DNA of 29,383 bases from a bacterium (GTDB taxonomy: Bacteria > Patescibacteriota > Patescibacteriia > JAACEG01), in contig JALULG010000079.1 in the NCBI GenBank assembly GCA_027040785.1, forward strand, positions 1-29,383, written 5' to 3'. This document shows positions 2,655 to 29,169 of the stretch, in pieces. The stretch's first letter is position 1. Each line of letters begins with the position of its first letter. The notes below the pieces were generated by a model that saw only the letters and a program-made list of their open reading frames with translations, ran no database searches and was not told the origin of the DNA. The position numbers and the translations under genes are program-made.

Positions 2655-2683
2655 TTGACAAGTTTTTAATAATATGCTATAGT
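2655..2683 (+). promoter_or_regulatory. Sigma70-type promoter for the accessory region
   Basis: TTGACA (2655-2660), 17 bp spacer, TGc-TATAGT (2678-2683) extended -10; predicted TSS about 2690. Confidence 0.75.
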
Positions 2684-2689
2684 GTAATG

Positions 2690-3756
2690 TCAAAATCAAA
2701 AAAGCACATTAATAAAAAAAATAAAGAAAACTTCCAAGCACTTGTTTCTTGAGGATTAGAGTAACAAGAAATTGCGGAAACGCGATACTTGTTCAACCCG
2801 AAAGAAAATCAAGCAAGTGGTAAGCAGTGAAGTTCACTTCCTTTCAAATGCTTGTCGAAAGGAGGTGAAACCTCTTCTTATCACAAGAAGATGAGACGTA
2901 CCCTACATAATAAAAAGAGGTTCGCAAATATGAAAAAGGGATTTGCGATAAACTCATAAAATCTTTTTTATTCCTAACCATGGATAAAAAGGATTAAAAT
3001 CCCCAAAATTTAAACAGGACCCGAAAGTAATATCTAATTTGTCCTTGTTTAAATTATAGCATATTTGCAACCCCCTTTCTATTAAGAAGGGGTACTAAAG
3101 TTCTTTTATTCAATAAATCGGGATTGCAACTGGCTTGGCATCACTCCCAAGCTAAGGCATCGGACTTAACCACCCGATGAGCGGAAGTGTAGCTCCTGTT
3201 CCGGAAAAACCGGGGCAAAGCTCGCCAACCTTCCCCAGTCCCTTATAATATTGAGTGATTGTGAGGAAAAATTTGCCTTAAAATAAATTTTTCCTCATTT
3301 CAGTCAATGTTATTGACAATTTCATATTCTAAACACTACACCCAGGAAAGTTTCTTGCAAGGCTTTTCTAAAAGTATTTTTTAGTAGTGTTTAGAATACT
3401 TTTAGCAAAAGTCCTGCAAAAAGCTTTCCTAAAAAGGAAAGCTTTTTGTTCGTTGACAACTGAATAAATCAAAAATATTTTTAATGAAATAGCGCTACTT
3501 GTTATTGGTGGCGTTCGCTCGGATAAAATCGGAGCATTTGAGTTGATGATATTTTTTGATAATGAATTGGTATTTAATATTAATTCTAAAAATACAAATT
3601 AATCTGAAATAATACGCAATTTCGCGTTTTTAGATATTTTCTCCTTTCTAATTGGATTGCCTTGCCCGAGGCGGTTATTCGCCGTTTCAGGGAGGCAATT
3701 CAAAAAAATTTTTTCCCAACCCGGCAGATGATCCGGGAAAGGGGAAAGGAGGAAAC
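2690..3756 (+). ncRNA. Long structured non-coding leader / candidate ncRNA(s) upstream of the Ubl operon
   Basis: No credible ORF over about 1.06 kb; successive hairpins, e.g. 2833-2869, 3120-3242 closed domain, 3245-3313, 3344-3430. No known family recognised. Confidence 0.5.
3422..3450 (+). terminator. Intrinsic terminator overlapping a long alternative hairpin (possible attenuator)
   Basis: AGCTTTCCT-AAAA-AGGAAAGCT followed by TTTTGTT. Confidence 0.6.
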
Positions 3757-5343
3757 ATGAAAAACTATTTCTTAGTCCTCAACGAGGATCAAAAAAATAA
3801 AATCCAGGAAACGGAAGTAGAATTTTGCGACCTGAACATTGACGGCCATGCCGGTGTGGTCGTTGATGAAGAAAATATCAACCCGGCATTACAGGCCATT
3901 GGCATGGTCGTGGTAGCTGAGACGGGAACCACCTTGGAGGGGATTGTCAAAGTTGAACTGCGATCAATTGAAACAGAGATTTTATCTCAATCTGCTGAAT
4001 CACGAGGTAAGGTTGAGGTGGAAAGCTGGAATGGCTATCAAAAAGATGAGTTTAAAAAACTTGTTTCAGACATACTTGTCCCAGTTGTGCAGACAGATAT
4101 TATTTTGTCTGTGCCACATGGAAGCCAAGTAAATCCTGTTTCTGGTGATAAATTTTATATCAGGATTTGGTCTGGGGCTGGAAAAAAAAATGACTTTAAG
4201 GCTCCTCAAAAAATTTGGGGTTATGATGTTGCTTGTCGTGATGCCGGATTCAAACCTACTGGTAAAGGTGTTGCTATCGTGGATATCGAAACCGGATGGG
4301 CGGTTGCCGAGTTGGTAAAGAATAATCTATATATTCACCATGATGCCTGCCACAGTGGCAAAAAATCAGAGGTAGAGATTTTCCGTCTACTTCTTAAGGA
4401 GGTAGTTGTTGAATTAACGCTTTCTCCAGAAGAAAAAGCGGAGCGACAACGGAAGTTGGCGGAGGAGCGCCGGCGGCGTTCGCGGGAGCAGTATATTCAG
4501 GAGTGTTCAAAGCGTCTAAAAAAGACGCTAGAGGGAACGCGGAAAAAAATTGCTGACGGCGAACGCGAGGTTGAGGAGCTCCAGAGGCAACTTGTCCGTC
4601 GAATTCGCGAGCTGGCGGGCGCGCGGCGAAAATTAGAGCAGCTTACATCTTGTCAGAGCGGAGAATTAGAACGGTATGGAAAGGAGTTCGACAAGCTTCT
4701 GGAGGTACCGAAAGTTCGCGACGTGCAGGTTGCATCCGGGGTAATCAAGGTGTTCACGGACACCTTGTATTGTACTGATCCTCGCTCTGGTAGGCTCCAC
4801 GAGATCGGCGCATTTCTTATTGAGATTTATACCGACAATGGCGACATTCGTTGGTATAATCTCACCCGTCAAGTTGATGGGTATGATTGGGGAAAGAGCC
4901 AGGCTCCGCACATCAATGGCAAGGGTAAAGCTTGTTTGGGGACAATGACAGAAATTGTCCCTGAGCTCGTGGCGAATTACGAGTTTGCAGCTTTGACTAT
5001 GGTGGCCATCCAGTTCGTAGAATCGGTTAACACTGATGATGCAGCTGGAAAGTATATTGATAGATGGCCGCTGGCCCCTATTGAACTACAGCCGTCAGAA
5101 ATTCAGGAGGAGCTGAGGCGAGTTGAGAAACTTCGCGGACAAAATCCGTTTCACAACGTAGAGTCTGATCTCAAGTTCGTGCAGATTGCTCGAAAGATGG
5201 AACCCGGATCTCGTATCCGCAATTGTGGTGATTGCTGGTGCTTCACAGGGAGTAATGGCGTAAAGACGTCGCAGCTGGCTAAGCTCCTAGAGGTTAGCGA
5301 GGGGCAGGTTCGGGAAGTTCTGAAAAATTATTTTACGATATAG
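3757..5343 (+). CDS. Coiled-coil plus C-terminal prokaryotic E2 (UBC-like) domain protein, 528 aa
   Basis: True start is probably ATG 3757 after SD AAGGAGG. A long E/R/K/L-rich coiled coil is followed by QAPHINGKGKACLG, which matches the E2 HPN...G.ICL active-site pattern with a catalytic Cys. Operon context with JAB, E1 and Ubl. Confidence 0.75.
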   Translation: MKNYFLVLNEDQKNKIQETEVEFCDLNIDGHAGVVVDEENINPALQAIGMVVVAETGTTLEGIVKVELRSIETEILSQSAESRGKVEVESWNGYQKDEFKKLVSDILVPVVQTDIILSVPHGSQVNPVSGDKFYIRIWSGAGKKNDFKAPQKIWGYDVACRDAGFKPTGKGVAIVDIETGWAVAELVKNNLYIHHDACHSGKKSEVEIFRLLLKEVVVELTLSPEEKAERQRKLAEERRRRSREQYIQECSKRLKKTLEGTRKKIADGEREVEELQRQLVRRIRELAGARRKLEQLTSCQSGELERYGKEFDKLLEVPKVRDVQVASGVIKVFTDTLYCTDPRSGRLHEIGAFLIEIYTDNGDIRWYNLTRQVDGYDWGKSQAPHINGKGKACLGTMTEIVPELVANYEFAALTMVAIQFVESVNTDDAAGKYIDRWPLAPIELQPSEIQEELRRVEKLRGQNPFHNVESDLKFVQIARKMEPGSRIRNCGDCWCFTGSNGVKTSQLAKLLEVSEGQVREVLKNYFTI

Positions 5344-5353
5344 GAGGTTAATA

Positions 5354-6082
5354 ATGTTGAAAAACAGCTGGAGAACTGCGGCAAAAAAATTTTTGCCGCA
5401 CAGTTTCCAAAACAGGGTAGAGTTGACTAATATTCCGAGGATTCTGATCACCCGCCAAGCCTATGAGGATATGTATATCCTCGTAGATGAGGTAAATAAG
5501 GAGGTTGGCTGGATCGGAACAGTAGAACGAGCAGGCAGTGATTTTTTGATAAAGGAAATTTTTCTCCTTGAACAGGAAACACATGTGGCCACCTGCGAAA
5601 TTACGGCTGACGGTTTGGCTGAGTGGGCGCAAGAAATTATGGCTTCCCGTCCTGATGGAATGGAAGTTGTAAATTCATTGCGTTTTTGGGGGCATTCCCA
5701 TGTAAATATGGGAACGAGTCCTTCTGGCCAAGACGAGAGTCAAATGACAGTGTTTGTTGAAAACGGATGTAACTATTTTATCCGCGGCATTTTGAACAAA
5801 CAGGGCCGGATGGAGTTCACGCTGTTTCTGTATGATGTTGGAATAAAGATAAGCGATGTTGAGTGGGAGCTGTATGAACCAGTTGACGAAAGCAGGCGCG
5901 AGCGATGGAAGACGGAGATTGAAGCTAAGGTGAAGGAAAAGTATGTTCCCCCGCCAACTCGCCATGTTGGTTTTGCCCCCTATTATAATAGAAATTGGGA
6001 GGATAATTACGCCGGTATTGTTGGTGGAAATTCTCGCTCCTGTTCTCGCAAGAGCCGAAAAAGGAAAGGAGGGAAGAGATGA
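5354..6082 (+). CDS. JAB/JAMM (MPN+) metallopeptidase, deubiquitinase-like, 242 aa
   Basis: Complete JAMM motif: E (KEVGW) ... H-S-H-x7-S-x2-D (HSHVNMGTSPSGQD); SD AGGAGG upstream. Confidence 0.9.
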   Translation: MLKNSWRTAAKKFLPHSFQNRVELTNIPRILITRQAYEDMYILVDEVNKEVGWIGTVERAGSDFLIKEIFLLEQETHVATCEITADGLAEWAQEIMASRPDGMEVVNSLRFWGHSHVNMGTSPSGQDESQMTVFVENGCNYFIRGILNKQGRMEFTLFLYDVGIKISDVEWELYEPVDESRRERWKTEIEAKVKEKYVPPPTRHVGFAPYYNRNWEDNYAGIVGGNSRSCSRKSRKRKGGKR

Positions 6083-6765
6083 ACAGAGTTGATCCCCTCC
6101 GACATCTTTCAGTATTTTCTCCCAGTAAATTTGGCTCGCGCCGGGTGGACGTTGTTGGTGCAGGCGCTACTGGTTCCCGCGTAGTGCCATCTCTTGCGAA
6201 ACTTGGAATTCAGAATATCCATTGCTGGGATTTTGATGTGGTTGAGGAACATAATGTGGCTAATCAGATTTTTGGAATCGGCGACATCGGAAAGTTGAAA
6301 GTGGAGGCTCTTGCGGAAGTTGTGAAACGCGACACTGGAGCTGAAATTCAAGTTCACGCGGAAAAAGTGGATGGTTCTCAGTCTCTGGGCGAGGTTGTTT
6401 TTTTACTAACGGATACAATGGAATCCCGCAAGCAGATTTGGACCAGGGCGCTTAAGTTCAAGTTGCGCACTCAGTTGGTAGTTGAGACTCGCATGGGCGC
6501 GGATAATGGTAGAGTGTATGCGTTAAATCCCAATAAACCCGGACATATCCGGGAATGGGAAAGGACGTTGTACGATGATGCGGAAGCGGAAATTTCAGCT
6601 TGTGGTGCGAGTGTTAGCGTGGGGCCTACTGCTGAGGTTATTTCAGGTATAGCTGTATGGCAATTAATACGGTGGTTCGCCATTGAGCAAGGAGAGGAAG
6701 ATGACCTTGATAATGAAATAATATTCTCTCTTAGGCCGATGGCGACCATCACCCGGAAATTTTAA
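6079..6765 (+). CDS. ThiF/MoeB-family E1-like adenylyltransferase, 228 aa
   Basis: VVGAGATGS nucleotide-binding loop, DFDVVEEHNVANQ motif, crossover-loop Cys in SACGASVSVGPT; ATGA overlap with the JAB gene. Confidence 0.9.
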   Translation: MNRVDPLRHLSVFSPSKFGSRRVDVVGAGATGSRVVPSLAKLGIQNIHCWDFDVVEEHNVANQIFGIGDIGKLKVEALAEVVKRDTGAEIQVHAEKVDGSQSLGEVVFLLTDTMESRKQIWTRALKFKLRTQLVVETRMGADNGRVYALNPNKPGHIREWERTLYDDAEAEISACGASVSVGPTAEVISGIAVWQLIRWFAIEQGEEDDLDNEIIFSLRPMATITRKF

Positions 6766-6890
6766 TTAACATTTAACCGTCCAACCCTATGACGTTAAAC
6801 TGGGGCTGTAATACTCCGGGGCAGCTCCGGGGCGCTTCGCACAGGCGGTCATTGTGTAAAAAATTCCAAGAACATGAAAGGAGAATGACT

Positions 6891-7100
6891 ATGATTACAG
6901 TAAGAATCGGAAGATTACCAGGACGGATTGAGGAATTGGCGCTTGAGTCTGGGTCTGTTGTAGCTGATGCTCTTGAGGTTTCTGCGCTTGACCCTGAAGG
7001 TTACGAAGTTCGGGTTAACGGCGCACCGACTGACCTAGAAGCGGAACTGACCGACGGTGACACGGTTCTCCTGGTTAAAAAGATCAAGGGCAACTGCTAG
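6891..7100 (+). CDS. Ubiquitin-like (beta-grasp, ThiS/MoaD-like) protein, 69 aa, C-terminus KIKGNC
   Basis: Start ATG 6891 (or 6885) after AAGGAG; VRVNG..........LxDGDTVLLV signature of beta-grasp modifiers; near-terminal Gly. Confidence 0.85.
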   Translation: MITVRIGRLPGRIEELALESGSVVADALEVSALDPEGYEVRVNGAPTDLEAELTDGDTVLLVKKIKGNC

Positions 7101-7860
7101 GCAAGCCCCAGCCAAAAGCCGAAACCATAAAAAGGAGGAGAAAGTGAGAAATAAATTTGTTTTGGCAGGCCGTTTGGGTTGAAGCGGGAAATGGCGGCCT
7201 AAAATAAACATTCCCCGCAGGTTATTTGTTTTATTTACGGAGGCATGGCCCGTAAATATAAACAAGTAACCCAAGCCCCGATATTGGAAGCGGTTAGAGG
7301 AACCGCTTAAACAAAATCCTCACCATGACTTGTCTAGGCAGTTTGGTGGTTCTGTCTAGGCTCGAGCTTGAAGGTAGGCATTGAAGGTCCCGAAGTTAAT
7401 GAGGACTGGCCGAAATCAAGCATCCGTCGTTTTCAATGACGGTAAAGAGCTGTTATATCCGAGTGGCTTCTTTATTGAAGTAGGGGTTTCGGCGCGAGTG
7501 AGCCCTTAACACAAGCGGATAGGTAGCCATACACCGAGACAAGTATGGCAGCTATACGGGTGAGTTAGCGCGACCTGGTATAGCATCTCCTTTGAGGAGA
7601 TACCCTTTAAGGGTGAACTAAAATGAACAGCTCAAAAATTACCCAAGAGAGGCCCGACTGTCTGAATGTGGCGGGCAGGAACGCTAATCTCTTGTATTTA
7701 AATGGCAAAAATCCACATCGTGAGTAGCCTTTGGAAAGAGCGGATGATCTCGGACCAAAAGGTGAAAGCGGGTTGCTTATAGTCAAGGAGTGCTATAAGC
7801 AACTATTTAACCAAACTCCATGGTTTTTTGAAGCGAAAGGTGGTACCTTTCGCTTCTTCT
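7101..7860 (+). ncRNA. Candidate large, highly structured ncRNA
   Basis: No credible ORF; nested long-range stems (7366-7371/7416-7421, 7447-7454/7626-7633, 7456-7461/7516-7521, 7644-7650/7688-7694) and three candidate pseudoknots; ends in a 12-bp hairpin at 7830-7856. Confidence 0.6.
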
Positions 7861-7876
7861 CCGAAACCATGATTTT

Positions 7877-7923
7877 AGATCCTGAAATAATACCGAATTC
7901 TCGGCACAAGATTCAGGATGACA
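7877..7923. repeat. Single nested REP-like unit, locus 3
   Basis: AGATCCTGAAATAATACCGAATTCTCGGCACAAGATTCAGGATGACA matches the nested units at 2191-2243. Confidence 0.85.
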
Positions 7924-7980
7924 TAAATATTAATCGTGGTTTCAGAGGAGGGAAATTTTAAAAAAAATCAACTAAAAAAT

Positions 7981-8135
7981 CTTTGGGCTTTGGTTGCCGG
8001 AAAAATGAAGTTGGCTTTTGGATAACCGCTTTATTTTTTCGGTAACCAAAAGGTTGCCCAAAGTGCCCGAATACGAATTAGATATTTTCAAAGTCTATTT
8101 TTGAAATTTATCTATATTCGTATTCGGGCTTTTTG
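7981..8135 (+). promoter_or_regulatory. Two tandem long imperfect hairpins, the second followed by a T-tract
   Basis: CTTTGGGC/GCCCAAAG (7981-8063); GCCCGAATACGAAT/ATTCGTATTCGGGC (8065-8129) followed by TTTTTGTTTG. Confidence 0.7.
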
Positions 8136-8168
8136 TTTGTCAAAAAATAAAAAAAGGAGGAAAAAGAG

Positions 8169-8549
8169 ATGGCGAAGAAAATTTTGTGGATTAGCCGGCA
8201 TCCAATGCATGGTGTTCAAATGGGCGCTTTGCGGAGGATGTTTGGTGAAGATGTTGTAGTTGAGGAGGACACCCGGCCGTTTGATGGAGCCGAGGCGATT
8301 GTTCGTAGATACCGAAAAGGCGATTATGATGATATTATCGTTGTGGCGCCATATTCGGTTTTAACGCGAATGGTTGATCTTGGCTTGCGGCCACTTTGGT
8401 CAGAGGCGGAAATTGTTCAAGATCCGGAATTAGCGGATTGGCGAGTCAAAAACCGTCTTTATCGTTTCAAACGGTTTCGGCGTGTTCGTCGACTGGTTAT
8501 GGAATTTGATGATCTCGGCCCAGAAGCCGAGAGAAAGGAGGAAGATTAA
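8169..8549 (+). CDS. Hypothetical protein, 126 aa (alpha/beta, WISRH motif)
   Basis: SD AAGGAGG, ATG start, protein-like composition, GC-richer than host. Confidence 0.8.
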   Translation: MAKKILWISRHPMHGVQMGALRRMFGEDVVVEEDTRPFDGAEAIVRRYRKGDYDDIIVVAPYSVLTRMVDLGLRPLWSEAEIVQDPELADWRVKNRLYRFKRFRRVRRLVMEFDDLGPEAERKEED

Positions 8550-8794
8550 TGGGAAGAAAAAAGATTGAATTGGAGAGCTTGATGTTTAGCCAGCCAGCCA
8601 GTGCGGCTATCACAGAGTTTATTCTCAATCTGGAAATCTTTTCCCAAATGACCGGCTCAGGAGATGTGGAAGCTTGGGGAGAGGTTAAAGACAACGGCGA
8701 TTTAGTTGTTAAAGCCGTTGTTAAAACCGCTTCCGGAGGGAAGATTAAAGGAGGTTTAGAAATCCCTTCGGAACACTGGGATTATGCCCAGTAA
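8549..8794 (+). CDS. Hypothetical protein, 81 aa
   Basis: SD AAAGGAGG, TAATG stop/start overlap with the previous gene. Confidence 0.75.
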   Translation: MGRKKIELESLMFSQPASAAITEFILNLEIFSQMTGSGDVEAWGEVKDNGDLVVKAVVKTASGGKIKGGLEIPSEHWDYAQ

Positions 8795-8811
8795 AATTTG
8801 GCAAACAAAAC

Positions 8812-8845
8812 GGGGGGGGCAAGTGTAAAACTATCTTGCCCCCTA
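8812..8845. terminator. Hairpin between convergent genes
   Basis: GGGGCAAG-TGTAAAACTAT-CTTGCCCC. Confidence 0.5.
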
Positions 8846-8860
8846 CGTTCTTTGAAAAAA

Positions 8861-10123
8861 TCAAATACTACTCACAAACCAAATCGGTCGGAATTTGACG
8901 GAGCAGTTTTGGTATTGCTCGTCTTTAACAATTGACCAATTGAGAACATAAGCTTCTTTTGGTTTATAGTTGCGAATAAAAGATTTTAATCCGGAAGGAA
9001 TGGTAGTTTGGTTTCCACCTTTGACTTCGATGGGAATCAATTGATTTTCTCGCTTGAGAATGATGTCTACTTCTTGACCTTGACGAGTACGCCAATAATA
9101 GACTTGTCCCCAGACACTCAAATTTTTCAACAGTTCCGTTACCACAAAGTTTTCCGCCAGCGCGCCGAAGTCGGTTGTCTTCGGCAACACCGAAAAATTA
9201 TCCAAGAGATAATTTCTCAATCCGCAGTCAATCAGATAAACTTTGGGGTTGCGAGTTAATTCTTTGATTTTGTTGGTGGAAAAAGGATGGAGCAAGTGAA
9301 GGATAAATGTATTTTGCAGAAGTTCCAAGCGATTTTCCAAAGCAACCCGATTAAGTTCGGAATTGACGGAGAGTTTTTGTTTCTCCAGCAAATTTCCGAT
9401 AAGAGAAGATAAAAGCGCCAGCAATTTCTTAACTTGCAAAGAATTGGCTTTGTAGTTCCAGATTTTAATGTCGCGAGTTAAATAAGAGTTTACCAATTCT
9501 TTCAAAGTTGATATTTTTTCTTCCGTACCGTTCAGATTGTTGACTTCCGGATAACCGCCGAAAGTGAGAAAGGAAACGAGTTTTTGATTAACGGATTTAA
9601 TCAGCCCGGTGGGTAATTGGCCGGAGTCTTGCAAAAGGGAAACAAACTGCCTCGTTTTTTCTTCGTTTTCCCAGTTAATGAATTCCTCAAAATCAAGCGG
9701 CCAAATCGGGATAACGATTTTGCGCCCCGCCATTGATTCATCAATATTGAGATACCAAGAAGCCGAGCCGGTAATAATCGGTTTGATATGCGGATAATGA
9801 TCATGAATTACTTTCAGAGTGGAACCAATTTCCGGAGATCTTTGAAATTCGTCAATAAAAAGATAGTATTTTTGAGAGGTATCTTTTAATGGAAGTGTAT
9901 TCAGAGCGTCTCTTTGGGTTTTCCATTGCTCCAGATCATCTGTTTGTTCTAAATCAAACCAAAGAATTTGGTTTTCAGAGATATTTTTTTCGGAAATTAA
10001 TTTCTCTCTAACCATTTTCATTAGAGTGGTTTTGCCAACTTGTCTGGCACCATTGAGAAGAATAATGTGATGAGAATCAATTTCTTGCCAAATTTTTGGA
10101 AATATTTTTCTGTTTTTTAGCAT
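8861..10123 (-). CDS. AAA+ ATPase (AAA_14 + DUF4143-like, C-terminal PD-(D/E)XK-like motif), paralog 1, 420 aa
   Basis: Start probably ATG 10123 (MLKNRKIF); Walker A GARQVGKT, Walker B FIDEFQ, TGSAS, GGYP, EVDII...IEVK. Confidence 0.88.
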   Translation of the reverse strand: MLKNRKIFPKIWQEIDSHHIILLNGARQVGKTTLMKMVREKLISEKNISENQILWFDLEQTDDLEQWKTQRDALNTLPLKDTSQKYYLFIDEFQRSPEIGSTLKVIHDHYPHIKPIITGSASWYLNIDESMAGRKIVIPIWPLDFEEFINWENEEKTRQFVSLLQDSGQLPTGLIKSVNQKLVSFLTFGGYPEVNNLNGTEEKISTLKELVNSYLTRDIKIWNYKANSLQVKKLLALLSSLIGNLLEKQKLSVNSELNRVALENRLELLQNTFILHLLHPFSTNKIKELTRNPKVYLIDCGLRNYLLDNFSVLPKTTDFGALAENFVVTELLKNLSVWGQVYYWRTRQGQEVDIILKRENQLIPIEVKGGNQTTIPSGLKSFIRNYKPKEAYVLNWSIVKDEQYQNCSVKFRPIWFVSSI

Positions 10124-10190
10124 AGTGATTATTTGATAGTTTAAATATAGATATATTTTGTATATTATACATACAAAATACCATAATTTA

Positions 10191-10218
10191 ATTATACAAC
10201 AAAGAAAATATCTGTCAA
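10191..10218 (-). promoter_or_regulatory. Sigma70 promoter for AAA paralog 1
   Basis: Minus-strand TTGACA (10218-10213), 16 bp spacer, TATAAT (10196-10191). Confidence 0.7.
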
Positions 10219-10269
10219 GAATTCCATTTTCTCGCTGATTTTCAAAATCGGCGGGAGATAGAGCTCTTA

Positions 10270-10411
10270 TCGTCTTCGGCGGTCGCAGAAAAACGCAGAA
10301 CAAACGCAGACAGACGCAGATACCGCTGGAGCGGTCGCGGACAGGCGCAGAACTTACGCAGACTGACGCAGAATGGACACAAACAGACGCGAAAGGATAG
10401 TTCTTTAAAAC
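10270..10411 (+). repeat. CGCAGA periodic repeat element, copy 1
   Basis: 10-11 nt units nnnACGC(A/G)GA with ACCGC-nnn-GCGGTCGC hairpins, followed by GTTCTTTAAAA at 10400. Confidence 0.8.
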
Positions 10412-10558
10412 CTCTCAAACGAACCTTAATGAAAAGGAAAATTATTTTCGTTTTTAGCAAGGTTCGTTTGAGGACCAAACATTTAGGGGCTGAGCATCCC
10501 CGGACCAACTGCTCTGCCTGAGGCGAAAGCCGAGGGCAAAATTCCTTAGGAGGAAATT

Positions 10559-11506
10559 ATGTATAATTTCAAACTCTTTGATCCTCGTCCGGTCCCCGCC
10601 GCCATCGCGACTAACGACCAGATTTTCGCCCAGGGCCCCGTCCTGGGTATTGAGGTCACCGTCCCGGTGCTCGCCCAGCGGTGCGAGCTGGGGAACATTG
10701 ACCCCCAACACACCGGAGGGGACACCTCCACTGCCGCCATTGAGGTGGCGCTAGAATGGCCCCTCCCGCCCGAAGGGGCGATGCTCGCCACCGTGCGGGC
10801 GGATCTGGATTCGGTCGGCGCCATGGCGGTCCTCGCCATGCGTGCCGAGGGACAGATTACTATGTTCCTCGAGGATGAAATTCTTGGGGACGAAGAACTG
10901 TCCCTGAGGATCGCGGCGGTTGCGGCCGCCGATAAATCCAAAACCGAGGAATGGCAGGGGCCGCGCCCCTTGCCGACACCTGAGGATCCCTAGGGCGACT
11001 CCCCTGCGGAGAAGCTCCTGGCTGCCATCGCGGCGTGTGTGGCGGACTTTCGTCGTCCTCTATCCGAGAGGGTAGAAGCGATGCGGAAATGGTTACTCAC
11101 CGGCGAAGAGCCAGAGGAGTACCGTGACCGCGTTGAGCGAGAGCGGGCCGAGATGGTGGCCGCCCTTCAAAGTGGCGCCATCAATGTCCGGACAGAGGCG
11201 GATGGGCGGATCGCGGTGGTGGAGTCCACCCACCGTGCCGCCACTGCCGTGGGCTATCACCTGGTCCCGGTAGTAGTCGCCCTGAATCCGGAGTTCAGGT
11301 TTCAGGGCGGGGAGCCCCACCGCAAGTTTACGGTCTGCCAATTCTCGGCAGGCTATGTGGATTTGCGGAAAGCCCTCCAAGAGCTTAACCAGCTCGAGGA
11401 GGGCTGGGGTGGTTCGCCCACCATTGGGGGCTCCCCGCAAGGGGTAAGCTCCCGCCTCTCCACCGATAAGGTGGTGGAGGTGGTAGCCCGCCACCTGCTC
11501 AGCTAG
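10559..11506 (+). pseudogene. GC-rich DHH/DHHA1-like phosphoesterase-type gene split by an in-frame TAG at 10991-10993
   Basis: ORFs 10559-10993 and 11039-11506 share a frame (PEDP*GDSPAEKLL...); SD AGGAGG; motifs NIDPQH, ADLDSVGAMA and C-terminal GWGGSPTIGGSP. The family call is tentative. Confidence 0.6.
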
Positions 11507-11519
11507 CCACTGAGTTTAT

Positions 11520-11550
11520 AAAAAAATCTCCAATTGGCGATTGGAGTTTC
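11520..11550. terminator. Hairpin terminator after the GC-rich gene
   Basis: AAAAAAA-CTCCAAT-TGGCG-ATTGGAG-TTT. Confidence 0.5.
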
Positions 11551-11650
11551 CGGGAAATCACAACCTCTGCTCCCACCATTTCTTGAGATCGGAAAATGGT
11601 AAAACATTTTGCGGTTTCAAATAGATGGTTAAATAAAATTAAATTAAAGT

Positions 11651-12409
11651 ATGCTTACCAAACACCTAACCCAAGCGGGTTTAAATGAAAATCAAGCCAA
11701 AGTTTATCAAGTCCTTTTGGAAAGGGGCGGTCTTTTGGGTGGGGAAATTTCGGTTTTAAGCGGTTTGGGCAGAGCTTTGACTTATAAAATTTTAAATGAC
11801 TTAGAAGAAAAAGATTTGATTTTTAAAGAAAAATCAGGGCAAGTTTATGTTTTCTTTGTGAAAAATCCGCAAAGAATGATTGAGAAAATAAAAAGAAAAG
11901 AAAAAAAATTACGTCAAGCGCGCGAGAATTTAAACTCCCAATTAAGCAATTTTAATGCTTTACATTTTGCTGATTCACCTAAAATATATCGTTACAACGG
12001 TTTAAACGGAGTAAAAAAAGTTTTGGATGATTCTTTAATTAACAATTCAAGCAAAGAAATTTTTTCTTTTCTTGATATGGAAAAATATGCCAATCATATC
12101 AATAATTTTCACAAAATAGATTATCAAGAAAAAAGAAAAAAATTAAAAATCAAAAAAAGAATTATCACTTTAAACAAACAAGCAAATCAAAAAATTGCTG
12201 AAAAGAAAAAAGACGGTTTTACCAAAATAAAATTCAGCGATCATAAAAATTATCCGTCCAATATGAAAGTAAATGTTTACGACAATAAAGTTGCTTTCCT
12301 AAATTTATCAGAACACAATCCTCACGGGATTATTATTGAAAGCAAGGAAATTTTTAATACTTTGAAAAGTATGTTTTTGAACCAATGGTTACTGCTTGGC
12401 AGTCGCTGA
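11651..12409 (+). CDS. TrmB-family transcriptional regulator (wHTH + PLD-like effector domain), 252 aa
   Basis: N-terminal GLNENQAKVYQVLLERG...SGLGRALTYKILNDLEEKDL HTH; YNGLNGVKKVL linker; VNVYDNKVAF C-terminal pattern. Confidence 0.8.
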   Translation: MLTKHLTQAGLNENQAKVYQVLLERGGLLGGEISVLSGLGRALTYKILNDLEEKDLIFKEKSGQVYVFFVKNPQRMIEKIKRKEKKLRQARENLNSQLSNFNALHFADSPKIYRYNGLNGVKKVLDDSLINNSSKEIFSFLDMEKYANHINNFHKIDYQEKRKKLKIKKRIITLNKQANQKIAEKKKDGFTKIKFSDHKNYPSNMKVNVYDNKVAFLNLSEHNPHGIIIESKEIFNTLKSMFLNQWLLLGSR

Positions 12410-12645
12410 GAATCGCGGAATACCGCTTTGCGGTCGCGGAAAAAGGCGGACTTTACGCGGACTGGCACGGAAAATTTAATATCAAAAATGCTCTGTTTGG
12501 AAGTTTTAGATTAATAAAATTTCCAAACAGGGCGCTTTGCCCTACCGCTACGCAGTCATGGAAGGACGCGTACTTTACGCGGAACGCGGACTGACGCGGA
12601 ACAAACGCAGATTGTCACGGAAAATATTTAATTGTTCTTTGAAAA
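12400..12645 (+). repeat. CGCGGA/CGCAGA periodic repeat element, copy 2
   Basis: TACCGCTTTGCGGTCGCGGA (12421), repeated ACGCGGA units, internal long hairpin GCTCTGTTTGGAA...TTCCAAACAGGGC, ends TGTTCTTTGAAAA (12633-12645). Confidence 0.8.
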
Positions 12646-12646
12646 A

Positions 12647-13810
12647 TCACAACAAAAACCCATAAGTTGTCTGAGGAGTATCGGTGTATTCTTGACTGAC
12701 AAGATAATGTTTTTTCAAACCGATTTTTTTGGCGCGGCGAGTCAAAGTTTTTAAATCTTGTTCAGTAGCGTGAAGTTTGACTTCGTAAGCGATTTTATCA
12801 TTAACGACAAAGTCAATTTCTTGCCCGTCTTTTTGTTGCCAGTATTTTACTTCTCCATGATGACGCAGAAGATTGAAAATACAATTTTCAAAAATTGATC
12901 CTCTGTCCAAACGGGAGAATTGATTAAGCAAGCCGGTATCAATGAAATACAATTTTTTGGCGCCGCGAATTTCCACATCGCGATTGGTGGAATATGGCGG
13001 GATGGTGGAGACAAGATAAGTATCGCGGAAAAATTCCAGATACGATTCAATCGTATCTTTGGCCACACCCAATTCTCTGGATAATTTGGTAATATCAATT
13101 TTGCTCCCCACTCGCTCCATGAGAAGAAAAATGAAATTACGAACTTTGTCTTTTTTGCGAAAATCACTCAATTTTTCCACTTCCAAAGACCAATAAGCGG
13201 AAAACACGTCATCAAGTTTGTTTTCTTTTTCTTGCTTGTTGTCCTCCAAAACAACCGCCGGGAAACCTCCATATTTCAGATATTCTGCGAAATAGGGAGC
13301 GTAATGTAAATAAAGTGATTGATTAATCGGCAAATCGGCTTTTGATTTTTTAAGATTTTTAGCGCGCAGAAATTCATTGAAATTAAAAGGATATAATTCA
13401 AAGATATATTTGCGGCCGGCCAAACTTTCGGTGAACATATTGCGGATATAATAACTGGCGGAGCCGCTGAGAAAGAATTTTATTTGATAATGATCGATAA
13501 GGTATTTTACAACAGAAGGTATATTGGGCATTGATTGAATTTCATCCAAAAACAAATAGATTTGTTTGTTGGGATTAATTCCGTATTCTTCCAGTTTGGC
13601 GGGAATGGTATCGTAATCAAAGGCGTCAAAAACAATTTGTTGACGAGGGTTGTCCAAGTCAAAAAAAAGCTTGTTGTCCGATTTTATTTCGTCAAAAATC
13701 ATTTTAAGCATAGTCGTTTTGCCCACTCGACGCATTCCGGTAACAATGATAGCTTCCGGTGATTTGATAAATCGCTCAATTTGAAAATGTAAATCTCGTT
13801 TGATTAACAT
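12647..13810 (-). CDS. AAA+ ATPase (AAA_14 + DUF4143-like), paralog 2, 387 aa
   Basis: GMRRVGKT, FLDEIQ, LSGSAS, YGGFP, EIDFVV...YEVK. Confidence 0.9.
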   Translation of the reverse strand: MLIKRDLHFQIERFIKSPEAIIVTGMRRVGKTTMLKMIFDEIKSDNKLFFDLDNPRQQIVFDAFDYDTIPAKLEEYGINPNKQIYLFLDEIQSMPNIPSVVKYLIDHYQIKFFLSGSASYYIRNMFTESLAGRKYIFELYPFNFNEFLRAKNLKKSKADLPINQSLYLHYAPYFAEYLKYGGFPAVVLEDNKQEKENKLDDVFSAYWSLEVEKLSDFRKKDKVRNFIFLLMERVGSKIDITKLSRELGVAKDTIESYLEFFRDTYLVSTIPPYSTNRDVEIRGAKKLYFIDTGLLNQFSRLDRGSIFENCIFNLLRHHGEVKYWQQKDGQEIDFVVNDKIAYEVKLHATEQDLKTLTRRAKKIGLKKHYLVSQEYTDTPQTTYGFLL

Positions 13811-13885
13811 AAAAATATAAATAGTTTAAAAGTTATACTTTTTTACTATTGGTAGTTTAGCATCATCTAAAAGTCTGTCAATACT

Positions 13886-13998
13886 AACCGCCTTTGGCGG
13901 TCGCAGAACAACGCAGATACTGCTTCGCGGTCGCGGACTTTGCGCAGAATAAACGCAGAAATACGCAGAAAAGAAAGAAGAAATTTGTTCTTTGAAAA
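13886..13998 (+). repeat. CGCAGA periodic repeat element, copy 3
   Basis: ACCGCCTTTGGCGGTCGCAGA, ACTGCTTCGCGGTCGCGGA, repeated ACGCAGA, ends TGTTCTTTGAAAA (13986-13998). Confidence 0.8.
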
Positions 13999-13999
13999 T

Positions 14000-15151
14000 C
14001 TACCCCAACCCCACAAATTCTTGATAATTCTCCGGAGTAATAGATTGAAAAGGGGTATTAGGATAAGCTTCGCGAAAAGGTTTAGGTGCTTGTTTTTTAA
14101 TCTTTCTAGGATTCCATTTGAATTCAAAGGCGGAAAGTTTTTGATTTCGTTCTTCTAGGTAGTCAATTTCTTGTTGTTGATGAGTACGCCAGAAGTAATT
14201 TCTGACCGAATGAGAATTATTTTCCAAAAACTTAATTCTTTCACTAATCAAAAAGTTTTCCCATAAAGCACCGACATCGTTACGAATATTTAAGGGATTA
14301 AAATTATTGATCAAGGCGTTTCTAATTCCTACATCATAAAAATAAATTTTGCGCAGTTTTTTTAATTCGGTTCGTAGGTTTTTGCTAAAAGGGGTGAGGC
14401 GAAAAATAATAAAAGCTTGTTCTAAAATTAGGATGTAATGATAAACGGTTTTTTTGTCAATTTGTAAAGTATTAGCTAATTCATTATAACTGACTTCATT
14501 TCCGTTTTGCAGGGCAATGGCTTGGAGCAGTTTATAGATAATGTCTGATTTCTTGATTCCTAAAAACTGTAGAACATCTTTATACAAATAACTATTAGCC
14601 AATTCTTTTAAATTGTCTTCCGCTTCATTGGGATTATTGATAATTTCCGGATACAAACCGAAACGTAAATAATTTTCTAAAGTGCGATTAATTTCTCTTG
14701 GGTTAAACTTTTGGATTAATTCTTGGAGAGAAAATGGATACAATTTGAAAGTGTATTTCCGACCAGTTAATGGTTCATTGATTTTATTGGCTAAATCAAA
14801 TGACGATGAACCGGTGGCAATAATCTGAATATGGGGATAATTGTCAATTAGTAATTTTAAGGTAAGCCCGATATTTTCTACTCGTTGCGCTTCATCAATG
14901 ACAACAATTTCATTATTACCCATAAAACTTTTTAATTCGGTAGATGTTTTATTGGTTAAAGCGAAACGATCATCCGGTTCGTCACAATTTAGATAAAGAC
15001 TTTTTTTATGGCGATAATTTTGCAAGATTTGTTTCACTAAAGTGGTTTTTCCAGCTTGTCTAGCTCCATAAATAATAATCACTTTTTCCTTAAAAAGTTT
15101 ATTTTCAATATTTTTTTGAATAGTTCTAGTTAGAAATTGAGTATTTTCCAT
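14000..15151 (-). CDS. AAA+ ATPase (AAA_14 + DUF4143-like), paralog 3, 383 aa
   Basis: GARQAGKT, VIDEAQ, ATGSSS, FGLYP, EIDYL...FEFK. Confidence 0.9.
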   Translation of the reverse strand: MENTQFLTRTIQKNIENKLFKEKVIIIYGARQAGKTTLVKQILQNYRHKKSLYLNCDEPDDRFALTNKTSTELKSFMGNNEIVVIDEAQRVENIGLTLKLLIDNYPHIQIIATGSSSFDLANKINEPLTGRKYTFKLYPFSLQELIQKFNPREINRTLENYLRFGLYPEIINNPNEAEDNLKELANSYLYKDVLQFLGIKKSDIIYKLLQAIALQNGNEVSYNELANTLQIDKKTVYHYILILEQAFIIFRLTPFSKNLRTELKKLRKIYFYDVGIRNALINNFNPLNIRNDVGALWENFLISERIKFLENNSHSVRNYFWRTHQQQEIDYLEERNQKLSAFEFKWNPRKIKKQAPKPFREAYPNTPFQSITPENYQEFVGLG

Positions 15152-15186
15152 AAATTTAATATAAATTAGGGGAATTAGATACCTTA

Positions 15187-15215
15187 ATTATATGTTATTT
15201 TGGAAATTTTGTCAA
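15187..15215 (-). promoter_or_regulatory. Sigma70 promoter for AAA paralog 3
   Basis: Minus-strand TTGACA (15215-15210), 17 bp spacer, TATAAT (15192-15187). Confidence 0.75.
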
Positions 15216-15350
15216 CACTGCTTTGACGGTCGCTAAATAACACTAAATATTATTTTACGATTACTGTAAATTACAGGATTTATATAAAATTTATATGTTT
15301 AATCATTTTTTTTATTTGTCTAAAAATATTTTTTAAGATAAAATATAAAT

Positions 15351-16139
15351 ATGTATCAAGATATTTTTAAACAAATAGGTTTTAATAAAAACGAGGCAAT
15401 CGTTTATGATTTTCTTTTGCAACACGGAGCCGTTTCCGCCGGGGAAATCATTAAAAAAACCCCTCTTAAACGCGGGGTGGTTTACAATGTTTTGAATGAT
15501 TTAATAAAAAAGGGGCTTATTGCGGAAAAAAAGAAGAATAAAAAAACAATTTTTAACCCCTTACACCCGGAAAAATTACGCGATTATGTTTTAGCAAAAG
15601 AAAAAGCAATTCAAAGCGCCAAAAACGCTTTGGAATCCAATTTGCCGGATATTGTTTCCGGTTTTAATTTGGTTTCCGGTCAGCCCGGAGTGAGATATTT
15701 TGAAGGGAAAAATGAAATTAAAAAGGCCTTAAAAATAATTTCAGATAATTTTACAGAAAAAACCGAGATACTTTCTTTTGTAAAAGTTTTACCCAAAGAA
15801 TTTGTCAAAGATGTTAATACGGCTTTTACCGCTTTTATTAAAAAAAGAATTCAAACAAAAGTGTTTACCAGAGTAATCGCGATTAAAAGCAGGGAATCTT
15901 TAAAATTGCAAAAAGATGATAAAAAGTCTTTGCGTAAAACAATGCTGGTTGATTTACAAAAAATGAAATTTGATTTTGCCGGCGGAGAATTTTTTATTTA
16001 CAAAAATATGATTTGCGCTGTTATTTTGAATAAAAACAGATATTCGGCTTTTCTTGTGGAAGATAAAAATATCAGTCAATTTTTAAAAATGTTTTTTGAA
16101 GCTCAGTGGTTGTTGATTAACAGGTCCAGTTTATCTTGA
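15351..16139 (+). CDS. TrmB-family transcriptional regulator, 262 aa
   Basis: GFNKNEAIVYDFLLQHG...TPLKRGVVYNVLNDLIKKGL HTH; PGVRYFEG linker; same architecture as 11651-12409. Confidence 0.82.
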   Translation: MYQDIFKQIGFNKNEAIVYDFLLQHGAVSAGEIIKKTPLKRGVVYNVLNDLIKKGLIAEKKKNKKTIFNPLHPEKLRDYVLAKEKAIQSAKNALESNLPDIVSGFNLVSGQPGVRYFEGKNEIKKALKIISDNFTEKTEILSFVKVLPKEFVKDVNTAFTAFIKKRIQTKVFTRVIAIKSRESLKLQKDDKKSLRKTMLVDLQKMKFDFAGGEFFIYKNMICAVILNKNRYSAFLVEDKNISQFLKMFFEAQWLLINRSSLS

Positions 16140-19100
16140 TTTTCTTTTTTGGCTTTGTCCGGAGAAAAAATAACATAAAAATTTTGATTTGTTTTGCTTT
16201 TTTCTTCAGGAATAAAACGGCTTAAAACATAGCCGTTTTTGTGTTGTTCGGCGATAGCCTTAAAAATCCAGCCATCCGGATCATTTTCCGTAATATCATC
16301 GTGATGATCTTGCCCATGATAAGCTATTTTACAAGCAGGATATTTTTCTCCCTGAAAATTAATTGTTGTTATTTTATTTTCGGTTAAAATTTGTGTTTTT
16401 AATATTTTTTCCAATTTTTTTTCTTCTTCGGAATTAAAATTTTTTAGAATATCCAAAGTATCCTCCGGAAAACGGCGAGTGCGGGCATAATGATCTTTGT
16501 ATTCGTTGTCTTTGGTGGAACCGGCAAAAGAAACAAAATTTAATCTTTCAATTAAAATCAAAAACGATCTAACATGTGGTTTGGCAACAGCGTAAAATAA
16601 CTTTTCTTTGTCTTCCTCAGAATTAAAACCAAGTCGTAAAGTGGCTTCTCCCAAACCCTTGATTTTTGCATCAGGGTTGGAAATAAACCAATCAATGTAT
16701 TCTATGTCGCCTTGTTTTTTTTCTTTACCAAAAAAAGAAACAATTTCATTGTTTATCAAAACAATTGTTAATTTTAAATTCGGATTATTTTGACATTCTT
16801 GTAAAAATACTTCATCATCTCCCGCCGGAAATTGCTTGCGAATTATTTTTTGAATTTGCGCCAATACTTTTTTGTTTTTTAACAATTCTTTACCGGAAAC
16901 ATTTTCCATTCTTTCTATGTCTTTAATTTTTCTTAAATCAATTTGACCAAGTTCTTCAATTGATAGTTGTTTTGTGATTTCGGAAAGTAAGATAACTCTG
17001 CCGTTGATTTGTTCTAATTCTTTTGCGATTACTTCTTCGTCAATTTTTTCTTTCCCAATTTTTTCAATGTAATCGTTTAAGATTTGATTTGCGTATTCCA
17101 AAAGATTATCACTGATTGCTTCAACTTTTTCTTCGTTTAACTCTTTGCTCTGAGCTAAAATTTTCCGAATTTCCTCTTTTCCCTTGCGCGCTTGATTAAT
17201 TATTTCGTTATATTTTTGAAAAACCAAGTCCGCGATATTTGTTTCAATATTCTTTGGTAAATTAGGTACTTGATCGTAAATTAATTCCATTATTTCATTC
17301 TCAAGGTTTTTCTGAAATTGTAAAACTTTTTTTGCCTTATCTATTTTTCTGTTTGCTTTTTCTATTTTGTCCTTAATTCTTGTAAAAATTTTTTTATCTA
17401 TTTTGTCCGATTTGCCAAAATTTTGAGCGTTTTCCGATTGTGCCATTTCGTAATAACCGTCAGTATGTAACATTGCTTCCAACTTTTTGACTGATTTTTG
17501 AGAGGCTTGAATAATTTTTTTCAAAACCGAACTATCTATTTTGTCTAAAATTTTTTCCATATCAAAATTCTCGTCCATCCACCAAGGACTAATCTCTCCT
17601 TTTTTTATTGCTTCATCAAGTTCTTGAGGAGTTTTATATTGTTCCGGATTACCGAATAATTCAGAGGCAATAGCATGCTCTCCGCCTTGTAAAAAGAGTT
17701 CGTCTTTTAATTTTTTCTTAGATTGATTAAAAAGTTTACTGATATGAATTAAATCATTTAATATTTTTCTATTTACCTTTTCTTGATGACGTAAATTGCT
17801 TATCAATCTTTTGATTATTTTTTCTTTTTCGGTTTCGCTGGCATCTTTTAATTCTTCAAAAGCTTGTTTTATCAAAGAAGATGCTTTGCGTAAAATTGTT
17901 TGAGTGGCTTTGTTTTTGTCCAATTCTTGGTTGGGAAAAATTTCTTTATATATTTGCACAAAAAAATCAATATGATTATTAACATTATCAACCATTTTGG
18001 CATACTCGCCAAAAATTTCATCAGCCAATTTTGATTCGTCTTTTAATTTTTCTCCAATACTTAAAATAATTTCACCCATTTGCGGGTCTTGTTCCAAGGA
18101 AAGGAAAGACTTGATACGATTGCTTTTTGATTGTTCACTTTTTGATTGTTTTAAAAACTCTTTTACTTGATCAACTTCTTGGTTTGTCTTGTCTTTTAAA
18201 AATTGCAAAAAATAACTTTGCTCCAAAGCGCTAAACTGAGTGATGTCAATTCCAAATTCTTCATCAATAGCCTCTCTAATCGGCTTTGACATTAAAAATT
18301 TATAATCATCCAGATTATCCGCGAAATCTTGTTTTTGTTTTTCAGTAAAAAAATCAATATCTTCTAAAGAGGTGATTTTATGAAAAAATTTTTCAATTTT
18401 ATGTTCATATCTTTCTAAAATTTCCGTGTTTATTCGTCCATTTTCATCCTCTCCAAAAGCATTAAAAACTTGACCTCTTAATTGAAAAAATTTATCTTCC
18501 AAATCTCCCATCTTTTTTCCAATTTCTGCCTTGGCTTTTGGAAATTTTTTAAAAAAATATTCATTTTGCTTAAATTCTTCTTCAATTTTGTCTTCAACCC
18601 CGTAAATACTTCCTTTGGTAAAAACCGTATTATCAAATCTGCCTTCCAAGATGCGAAAAGAAACTTCTTTGGGAAATCTATAATTTTCCGTTTCTTCGGG
18701 ATGATTTTGAAAATATTTTTCAATAAGTTCACTTTGCAGAGTGAGGTATTCTTTTTCAAGTTCTTTATATCTGCGATAAAGATCAATTATATTAAAATAA
18801 CTTTCCACCTCCTCGTAATCGTTTTTTTGAGTAATTTTTAATTCACCGGTTTTATCATACAAAGCAAAAATTTTTTTGCTTAATCTGAAAGGATAAACAT
18901 CTTTATCCGTAGCGGGTTCTTCAAAATAATAAAACACATTTTCATCTACAATTTTACGTAATCTTAAACTTAAAAAATAATTGTTTTCTTTTTCTTTGCT
19001 TAATTCTTTAATGTCTGCAAAAAATTCTTCCGGATCTTTAATTTTATCTTTTTCATATCCTCCAACTTCAAGCATTTCCTCATAAGAAGTGTAAATTAGG

Positions 19101-22120: not shown

Positions 22121-22335
22121 GCTGTCATTCTGAATTTAGTTCAGTATTGTTTTAGAATTTCATGGTAAACATATGTCATCCTGAACATTTCAGGGTCTCA
22201 TGTCAACTCCACTATCGCTCTGAACTTGTTTCAGGATCTCGAGGGTTTTTAATTTTACTTTTTCCTCCGAGATGCTGAAATGAATTCAGCATGACATGGG
22301 AAAAAACGAGACCCTGAAATAAATTCAGGGTGACA
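22121..22335. repeat. REP-like palindromic repeat cluster, locus 4
   Basis: Same units and nearly the same order as 2086-2243 (GTCATCCTGAACATTTCAGGGTCTC...GAGATGCTGAAATGAATTCAGCATGAC...GAGACCCTGAAATAAATTCAGGGTGAC). Confidence 0.88.
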
Positions 22336-22405
22336 AAAGAGATTCAAAATAACAATAAAACAAATCAATTTTCTTTAAAATACTTAAATTTTTTCGCTCT
22401 TGCTA

Positions 22406-29126: not shown

Positions 29127-29169
29127 ATTTTTATATAATTTATTTATATATAAAGTAAAATAATATTAT

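What the first reader, a model, noticed from the sequence alone, without database searches (positions are those of the whole stretch)
8847..14002. The same GTTCTTTGAAAA motif abuts the stop codon of all three divergent AAA+ genes
Seen: on the + strand GTTCTTTGAAAA lies at 8847-8858, 12634-12645 and 13987-13998, each within 1-2 nt of the minus-strand stop codons at 8861, 12647 and 14000, although the three genes are divergent. A variant GTTCTTTAAAA is at 10400. Established: TGTTCTTTGAAAA resembles the bacterial rrn boxA antitermination element. Inference: either boxA-like sites driving antisense read-through, or a fixed recombination/insertion target at which these ATPase genes were captured as cassettes.
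Basis: partly seen in the sequence, partly recalled or inferred. Interest (0 to 1): 0.6.

Follow-up and report, generated by a model that had tools for sequence, protein, structure and literature searches.

The report
rRNA-type boxA signals facing three ATPase genes
A 12-base signal that heads ribosomal RNA genes in this group of tiny bacteria sits, base-exact, against the stop codons of three unrelated-looking backward-facing ATPase genes, most likely so that transcription of the opposite strand can run through them.

Summary
GTTCTTTGAAAA occurs exactly at 8847, 12634 and 13987 (+). These copies lie 2, 1 and 1 nt from the minus-strand stops of three AAA_14/DUF4143 genes that share only 27-33% identity. 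Shuffles of the window give 0.03 copies, and the 1.04-Mb genome holds five.

The boxA resemblance is real. In a genome of the same class the identical 12-mer follows a hairpin and a T-run upstream of both 16S and 23S rRNA. This genome's own 16S leader carries its first 10 bases. In relatives the motif lies in 5' leaders, always in the sense direction. nusB and nusG are present. Rho was not found in 31 genomes of the class.

Over 240 homologous ATPase genes elsewhere lack the motif. Only the closest A3 orthologue (G006) keeps it.

Five boxA-like copies lie on the + strand here, none on the minus strand, and every non-ATPase gene from 3652 to 16139 is on the + strand.

Best reading (about 0.5): Nus-loading signals let + strand transcription cross the inserted backward genes. 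Main rival (about 0.25): the edge of a duplicated spacer or cassette module.

The parts
8847..8858 (+). boxA-type 12-mer, copy 1, 2 nt from the A1 stop; preceded on + by the hairpin 8815-8845
12634..12645 (+). boxA-type 12-mer, copy 2, 1 nt from the A2 stop; preceded by a CGC(A/G)GA array
13987..13998 (+). boxA-type 12-mer, copy 3, 1 nt from the A3 stop; preceded by a CGC(A/G)GA array
10400..10410 (+). variant GTTCTTTAAAA, a perfect match to the E. coli-type consensus GYTCTTTAANA; array before it, 29-nt-arm hairpin (10414-10472) and + strand ORFs after it
3448..3459 (+). variant GTTCGTTGACAA after a hairpin and T-run in the leader of the Ubl operon; identical to the 16S-leader element of genome G052
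8861..10123 (-). A1, AAA_14+DUF4143 ATPase (ORF open to 10303; probable start near 10123)
12647..13810 (-). A2, AAA_14+DUF4143 ATPase
14000..15151 (-). A3, AAA_14+DUF4143 ATPase
10191..10218 (-). A1's own promoter, TTGACA-16-TATAAT (12 of 12)
13854..13881 (-). A2's own promoter, TTGACA-16-TAAACT with TG
15187..15215 (-). A3's own promoter, TTGACA-17-TATAAT (12 of 12)
10270..10399 (+). CGC(A/G)GA array, homologous to the other arrays, ending at the variant motif
12390..12633 (+). two CGC(A/G)GA array units around a hairpin (12494-12531), ending at copy 2
13890..13986 (+). CGC(A/G)GA array ending at copy 3
8815..8845 (.). GC-rich hairpin; on the minus strand it is followed by a T-rich tail (likely A1 terminator); on the + strand it precedes copy 1, as hairpins precede boxA in leaders
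2655..2683 (+). best + strand promoter of the region (TTGACA-17-TATAGT, TG), possible start of the long + strand unit
11651..12409 (+). TrmB-like regulator gene upstream of copy 2
15351..16139 (+). second TrmB-like regulator gene downstream of A3; a + strand terminator-like hairpin at 16214-16239 follows

Best explanation
The 12-mer is this lineage's rRNA-type boxA, the short RNA signal that loads NusB-S10 and the other Nus factors onto RNA polymerase. It is read on the + strand. Five boxA-like copies (3448, 8847, 10400, 12634, 13987) all point the same way along 3.4-16.1 kb. In that stretch every gene except the three ATPase genes is on the + strand. The three DUF4143 ATPase genes are separate, backward-facing units, each with its own strong promoter, wedged into this region. 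Each exact copy lies just where a + strand polymerase would enter a long untranslated antisense stretch, as boxA lies before 16S and again before 23S. Inferred mechanism: Nus-modified, pause- and termination-resistant complexes cross the backward genes. That would keep downstream + strand genes expressed (the GC-rich ORFs and the two TrmB-like regulators), or damp the ATPase genes by antisense transcription, or both. Shown: the sequence identity with true rrn boxA, its sense orientation in leaders elsewhere, the presence of nusB and nusG, and the strand layout. Inferred: that + strand transcripts reach these sites, and that Nus factors act there.
For: (1) In G070, a genome of the same class, the exact 12-mer follows a hairpin and T-run about 60 nt upstream of 16S and about 55 nt upstream of 23S (rRNAs confirmed by Rfam). 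(2) This genome's own 16S leader has a TTGACA-17-TATATT promoter, an AU hairpin, a T-run and then the first 10 bases of the motif, 81 nt before 16S. (3) 16S leaders across the class carry variants fitting GTTCnTTGAMAA, including GTTCGTTGACAA, which is the element at 3448. (4) The motif matches 10 of 11 positions of the E. coli consensus GYTCTTTAANA (PMC5725501) and 10 of 11 of the NusB-binding B. subtilis boxA (PMC13753749); the 10400 variant matches the E. coli consensus perfectly. (5) In same-family genomes, 8 of 14 exact copies are intergenic, and all 8 point toward a same-strand gene 41-542 nt downstream, several just after TTGAnn-17-TATAtT promoters, for example in front of a sigma-70 gene. 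More leader copies occur in G058, G008 and G052. (6) nusB and nusG are present. (7) All five boxA-like copies in the window are on the + strand. The genome has only 13 intergenic hits to the relaxed 12-nt pattern, 4 of them in this window; the 10400 variant falls outside that pattern. (8) Two copies (10400 here, G006 position 5709) are followed by + strand features rather than by an ATPase stop, as a normal leader boxA would be. (9) The motif does not travel with the ATPase genes: 0 of 20 A2 orthologues, 0 of 86 A3 homologues and 0 of about 30 other DUF4143 loci have it.
Against: No transcript data exist, and no convincing + strand promoter lies directly upstream of copies 1-3, so transcripts would have to come from far upstream. 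Rho was not found in 31 genomes of the class, so the classical anti-Rho reason for boxA before untranslated RNA does not apply. boxA is nevertheless kept before the rRNA genes here. The model does not require a 1-2 nt spacing to the stop codon; genome compaction or a cassette edge explains that better. Three of the copies (12634, 13987 and the 10400 variant) are the conserved end of a duplicated array module, so their identity may reflect duplication rather than selection at each site. Nucleotide homology with G006 begins exactly at the motif. Across the class the 12-mer is not clearly commoner than its reversed control.
Confidence: 0.5

Rival explanations
1. The motif is the terminal sequence of a duplicated intergenic spacer or cassette module. 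The unit is [12-mer, ATPase gene, its promoter, CGC(A/G)GA array, 12-mer], and units were joined or exchanged by recombination at or next to the 12-mer. Its likeness to boxA would be incidental, or the module borrowed a leader fragment.
For: Three units show this layout, bounded by direct copies of the motif: 8847-10410, 12634-13998 and G006 4324-5720. The array-plus-motif modules align with each other and with G006, while the genes between them are about 30% identical and their promoters and 5'UTRs are not homologous. Homology between the window and G006 starts at the first base of the motif. In G006 the motif is the first sequence of a 1.9-kb insert lying 2 nt after the uvrA stop. A3 ends at the natural C-terminus of its clade, so the boundary falls right after the ORF.
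Against: The empty sites in G004, G005 and G002 hold no motif, and the right end of the G006 insert has none, so it is neither a pre-existing target nor a target-site duplication. No integrase, recombinase or transposase domain was found in the ORFs scanned in the window. The integron core GTTRRRY does not fit. The arrays are an independent dispersed repeat found in 32 of 201 class genomes, mostly without the motif. Orthologues of A2 and A3 elsewhere have no such edges. The same 12-mer has a clear, different role in rRNA and mRNA leaders.
Confidence: 0.25
2. The element works on the minus strand, as the first 12 nt of the ATPase mRNAs' 3'UTR (UUUUCAAAGAAC). It could be a protein-binding or stability signal, or an anti-boxA able to pair with boxA-bearing RNAs.
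For: There is a tight, conserved 0-2 nt spacing to four stop codons: A1, A2, A3 and the G006 orthologue. Each gene has its own strong promoter, so these 3'UTRs are surely made.
Against: None of more than 240 homologues has it. Everywhere else in the class the functional orientation is the opposite one. Two copies (10400, G006 5709) do not follow any minus-strand gene.
Confidence: 0.08
3. It is a DNA operator for a transcription factor, for example the neighbouring TrmB-like regulators; the core is a TTC-N3-GAA inverted repeat.
For: The core is a partial palindrome. Tandem copies 11 bp apart lie just after the promoter of a sigma-70 gene in G002 and G007. Two TrmB-like genes lie in the locus.
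Against: In relatives the motif lies downstream of promoters at variable distances, often directly before the ribosome-binding site, and always in the sense direction. It also sits in 16S and 23S leaders after a hairpin. This is the behaviour of an RNA signal. No TrmB gene accompanies it in relatives.
Confidence: 0.07
4. Chance matches in an AT-rich genome.
For: With one mismatch allowed the window count is unremarkable. The 12-mer is not clearly enriched class-wide.
Against: Three exact copies occur where 0.03 are expected, and 0 of 100 shuffles reach 3. All three lie within 2 nt of stops of the same rare gene family (6 genes among about 970).
Confidence: 0.01

Closest known systems
rrn operon boxA and the Nus antitermination complex (NusB-S10, NusA, NusG, SuhB, S4)
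   Same: It has the same core sequence class: 10 of 11 positions to the E. coli consensus and to the B. subtilis NusB-binding boxA. It is identical to the element before 16S and 23S in a genome of the same class. It is often preceded by a hairpin and T-run. It is repeated before each long untranslated stretch, as in leader plus spacer of rrn operons.
   Different: Here what follows is the antisense of a protein gene, not an rRNA. No promoter lies close upstream. The lineage appears to lack Rho. Nus binding and antitermination are untested.
boxA outside rRNA operons (suhB 5'UTR and other mRNA leaders, PMC5725501; CRISPR-array leaders, cited in PMC13753749)
   Same: A boxA placed in front of non-rRNA transcripts, including long untranslated ones, to control elongation.
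   Different: The known cases lie in sense leaders of the regulated gene or array. Here three copies face into the 3' ends of convergent genes.
Integron gene cassettes (attC, core site GTTRRRY, IntI integrase)
   Same: Divergent genes are each bounded, right after the stop codon, by the same short sequence starting GTT, next to a repeat-rich element.
   Different: The core does not fit GTTRRRY. No integrase was found. Each gene has its own promoter. The repeat is a direct array and not an attC-type imperfect palindrome. The empty site lacks the motif.
Earlier notes of this scan: e1-5285045 (rRNA-style boxA leaders on accessory genes of a CPR-type bacterium) and e1-431327 (a prophage boxA read as carrying transcription across an inserted backward gene)
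   Same: The same kind of signal and, for the second note, the same proposed use.
   Different: Those are unchecked AI notes on other DNA. Here there are several copies, each abutting a stop codon.

Membership tests
boxA (Nus-factor loading signal) | Sequence fits the boxA consensus of the organism's own lineage | tested here: met
   It is identical to the element upstream of 16S and 23S in G070. Its first 10 nt are in G000's own 16S leader. It fits the class pattern seen in 16S leaders. It matches 10 of 11 positions of the published E. coli and B. subtilis consensus sequences.
boxA (Nus-factor loading signal) | Lies in the transcribed strand downstream of a promoter | tested here: inconclusive
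   This is met in relatives. In the window the nearest good + strand promoter is at 2655-2683, and no promoter lies just upstream of copies 1-3. No RNA data are available.
boxA (Nus-factor loading signal) | Genome encodes the Nus partners | tested here: met
   nusB is on C39 and nusG on C206. S10 and nusA were not searched.
boxA (Nus-factor loading signal) | Binds NusB-S10 and confers termination resistance | not testable with these tools
   This needs binding assays and a reporter.
boxA (Nus-factor loading signal) | Counteracts Rho | tested here: not met
   The Rho RNA-binding domain was not found in G000 or in 30 relatives of the class, while the control genomes score as expected. Any function here must be Rho-independent.
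Integron-type gene cassette | Integrase gene and attI nearby | tested here: not met
   No recombinase domain was found in the ORFs scanned.
Integron-type gene cassette | Core site GTTRRRY and an attC imperfect palindrome after each gene | tested here: not met
   The motif reads GTT then CTTT, which are pyrimidines where purines are required. The adjoining element is a direct array.
Site-specific insertion target | Empty sites carry one copy of the target | tested here: not met
   The uvrA to solute-binding-protein junctions of G004, G005 and G002 have no motif.

The most novel reading that the evidence does not exclude
In Rho-less ultra-small bacteria, rRNA-type boxA signals are placed at the 3' ends of backward-facing, strongly promoted DUF4143 ATPase genes. 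Nus-modified polymerases then drive antisense transcription through them. This would act as a dedicated on/off switch for these defence-island-like genes, and it would keep the surrounding operon intact after gene insertion.
Probability: 0.2. Interest if true: 0.7.

Novelty: new variant of a known kind. Interest (0 to 1): 0.45.

Why it matters
boxA is known from rRNA operons, a few mRNA leaders, CRISPR arrays and phage nut sites. If these copies work as proposed, processive antitermination is also used to carry transcription through inserted, oppositely oriented genes, or to silence them from the far end. That would be happening in a lineage that has lost Rho, which would show a Rho-independent use of the Nus system. 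It would also give a simple handle on how accessory genes are tolerated inside operons of very compact genomes. If the rival is right, the 12-mer marks the edges of a small cassette-like unit for a very common but uncharacterised ATPase family.

Tried and rejected
- A pattern scan of genome contigs for an array hexamer plus the motif returned only chance hits inside coding regions of unrelated bacteria.
- Reading the motif as a + strand promoter (TTGAAA as a -35) failed, because no usable -10 follows at any site.
- An ECF-type -35 on the minus strand was rejected, because no common -10 follows.
- A small + strand ORF starting at the motif was rejected, because the frames differ between sites.
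- A conserved 3' feature of DUF4143 genes was rejected.
- Convergent boxA as a general rule for DUF4143 genes was rejected. Among 155 genes only G000's own show it. Within G000, however, two further DUF4143 genes on contig C9 are also faced by boxA-bearing units.
- A search of viral contigs for the neighbouring 126-aa protein found nothing.
- Homologues of that protein in the class gave one suggestive case only, a 1-mismatch motif about 108 nt downstream in G225.
The contigs carrying the 89-90% identical A3 homologues P0002 and P0003 therefore could not be read.
- 23S rRNA is not in this assembly.
Full report
**Observation**

The 12-mer GTTCTTTGAAAA occurs exactly three times in the window, at 8847, 12634 and 13987, all on the + strand. 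Shuffles give 0.03 exact copies, and none of 100 reaches three. The minus-strand stops at 8861, 12647 and 14000 lie 2, 1 and 1 nt away.

The three ORFs each carry AAA_14 plus DUF4143 and share only 27-33% identity. Recent gene duplication therefore cannot explain the identical flank. The variant at 10400 is present.

The whole assembly is 1.04 Mb at 32% GC in 224 contigs, typical of an ultra-small CPR-type bacterium. Close protein relatives are labelled Moranbacteria or Parcubacteria. The assembly holds only five exact copies, and the other two are inside ORFs.

**The motif is not a property of the gene family**

- The other three DUF4143 genes of this genome lack it.
- So do about 30 DUF4143 loci from relatives.
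- So do 20 A2 orthologues at 35-63% identity.
- So do 86 A3 homologues at 46-72% identity from metagenomes.
- The single exception is the closest A3 orthologue, a pseudogene in genome G006 (77% nucleotide identity). It carries a one-mismatch copy directly after its stop.

**What the motif is elsewhere**

In genomes of the same family, 8 of 14 exact copies are intergenic. All 8 point toward a same-strand gene 41-542 nt downstream. Several lie just after good sigma-70 promoters, for example as a tandem pair in front of a sigma-70 gene in two genomes.

In a wider sample of the class, genome G070 has the exact 12-mer after a hairpin and a T-run upstream of both its 16S and its 23S rRNA (Rfam confirmation). 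Other genomes have it between promoter and ribosome-binding site of mRNAs.

This genome's own 16S leader shows a consensus promoter, an AU hairpin, a T-run and then the first ten bases of the motif, 81 nt before 16S. 16S leaders across the class carry variants of one pattern. One of them is GTTCGTTGACAA, which also stands at 3448 in the window after a hairpin and T-run in front of the Ubl operon.

Published consensus sequences agree:
- E. coli-type GYTCTTTAANA (PMC5725501).
- The NusB-binding B. subtilis element AUGAUCUUUGAAA (PMC13753749).

The window motif matches 10 of 11 positions of each, and the 10400 variant fits the former perfectly.

nusB and nusG are present. The Rho RNA-binding domain was not found in this genome or in 30 relatives, with controls behaving as expected.

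I therefore take the motif to be this lineage's boxA-class signal, read in the GTTC... direction.

**Layout of the locus**

Five boxA-like copies (3448, 8847, 10400, 12634, 13987) are all on the + strand. The genome as a whole has only 13 intergenic hits to a relaxed 12-nt boxA pattern, four of them in this window; the 10400 variant falls outside that pattern.

From 3652 to 16139 every gene other than the three ATPases is on the + strand:
- the Ubl operon;
- two small genes;
- GC-rich ORFs;
- two TrmB-like regulators.

The best + strand promoter is at 2655-2683. A + strand terminator-like hairpin follows the second TrmB gene at 16214.

Each ATPase gene has its own strong minus-strand promoter, and two of the three are perfect consensus.

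Each exact copy therefore stands where a + strand polymerase would enter a long untranslated antisense stretch. This is the position boxA holds before 16S and 23S. Two further copies (10400, and position 5709 in G006) are followed by + strand features instead: a long hairpin with ORFs here, and a very stable fold in G006 (z = -7.7). That is what an ordinary leader boxA would look like.

**Evidence pointing the other way**

Three of the copies (12634, 13987 and the 10400 variant), plus the G006 copy, are the conserved end of a homologous module made of a CGC(A/G)GA array and an A-rich spacer. Three units have the form motif, ATPase gene, promoter, array, motif. Homology between the window and G006 begins at the first base of the motif.

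G006 is a filled site. uvrA and a solute-binding-protein gene are adjacent in G004, G005 and G002, but in G006 they are split by a 1.9-kb insert whose first bases are the motif. This fits a cassette-edge reading.

Several points weigh against that reading:
- The empty sites have no motif.
- The other end of the insert has none.
- No recombinase is in the window.
- The promoters and 5'UTRs of the three genes are unrelated.
- The arrays are an independent dispersed repeat, present in 32 of 201 class genomes with zero control hits, mostly without the motif. In this genome they even sit in frame inside the leucyl-tRNA synthetase gene.

**Verdict**

The identity of the motif as a boxA-class element is well supported (about 0.8). 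That it acts as such at these three sites, carrying + strand transcription through the backward ATPase genes, is the best explanation but remains inferred (about 0.5). The module or cassette-edge reading is the main rival (about 0.25). The two are not exclusive.

The 1-2 nt spacing to the stop codons is not explained by the boxA model alone.

Both are unchecked notes.

This blocked the most useful comparison, with the 89-90% identical loci.

Noticed in passing
G000 contig C102, 6106-6324 (outside the window): Two CGC(A/G)GA arrays, one of them palindromic, lie in frame inside the leucyl-tRNA synthetase gene. The same repeat family occurs in 32 of 201 genomes of the class, up to about 50 copies per genome, with zero hits for the reversed control. 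It behaves like a mobile mini-repeat that can be tolerated in coding sequence.
   Followed up: partly
G000 contigs C9 (about 966, 2982, 4926) and C166 (about 6342): A conserved leader module of about 150 nt (promoter, hairpin, GTTCGTTGAAAA, two more hairpins, ribosome-binding site) is repeated in front of small unrelated genes. On C9 these units run toward the 3' ends of the genome's other DUF4143 genes, so 5 of the 6 DUF4143 genes in this genome are faced by a boxA-bearing unit.
   Followed up: partly
L151 (G006 contig C51) 4840-5120, minus strand: About 110 nt after the exact array-plus-boxA module lies a region of about 230 nt closed by a helix of about 19 bp. It folds at -92.5 kcal/mol (z = -7.7) and has no Rfam family. 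It could be an unknown structured RNA or a long palindromic repeat.
   Followed up: partly
L151 versus L197, L200, L201: In G006 a 1.9-kb segment (A3 orthologue pseudogene, array, boxA, structured region) is inserted between uvrA and a solute-binding-protein gene. These two genes are adjacent in three related genomes.
   Followed up: yes
window 27975-29378: dnaN (27975-29126, minus strand) is followed by tandem TTATCCACA-type DnaA boxes at 29343-29378 and an 11-nt tandem repeat at 29236-29260. This is probably the replication origin.
   Followed up: no
window 98-194, 2039-2540, 7877-7924, 22123-22340: A second dispersed repeat family of short hairpins (TGTCATYCTGAAC...GTTCAGRATC type) occurs in clusters on both strands.
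   Followed up: no
G000 contig C136, 4935-6897: The 16S rRNA gene spans 1963 nt for a 1533-position model, so it probably carries an insertion of about 430 nt. The leader and trailer form the usual processing helix.
   Followed up: no
window 24622-24951, minus strand: A small RNHCP-domain (zinc-ribbon) protein with a weak, sub-threshold similarity to antitermination protein Q.
   Followed up: no
window 10559-11506: A GC-rich (about 49% in a 32% genome) + strand ORF pair with no Pfam match, even when the in-frame TAG is read through.
   Followed up: no
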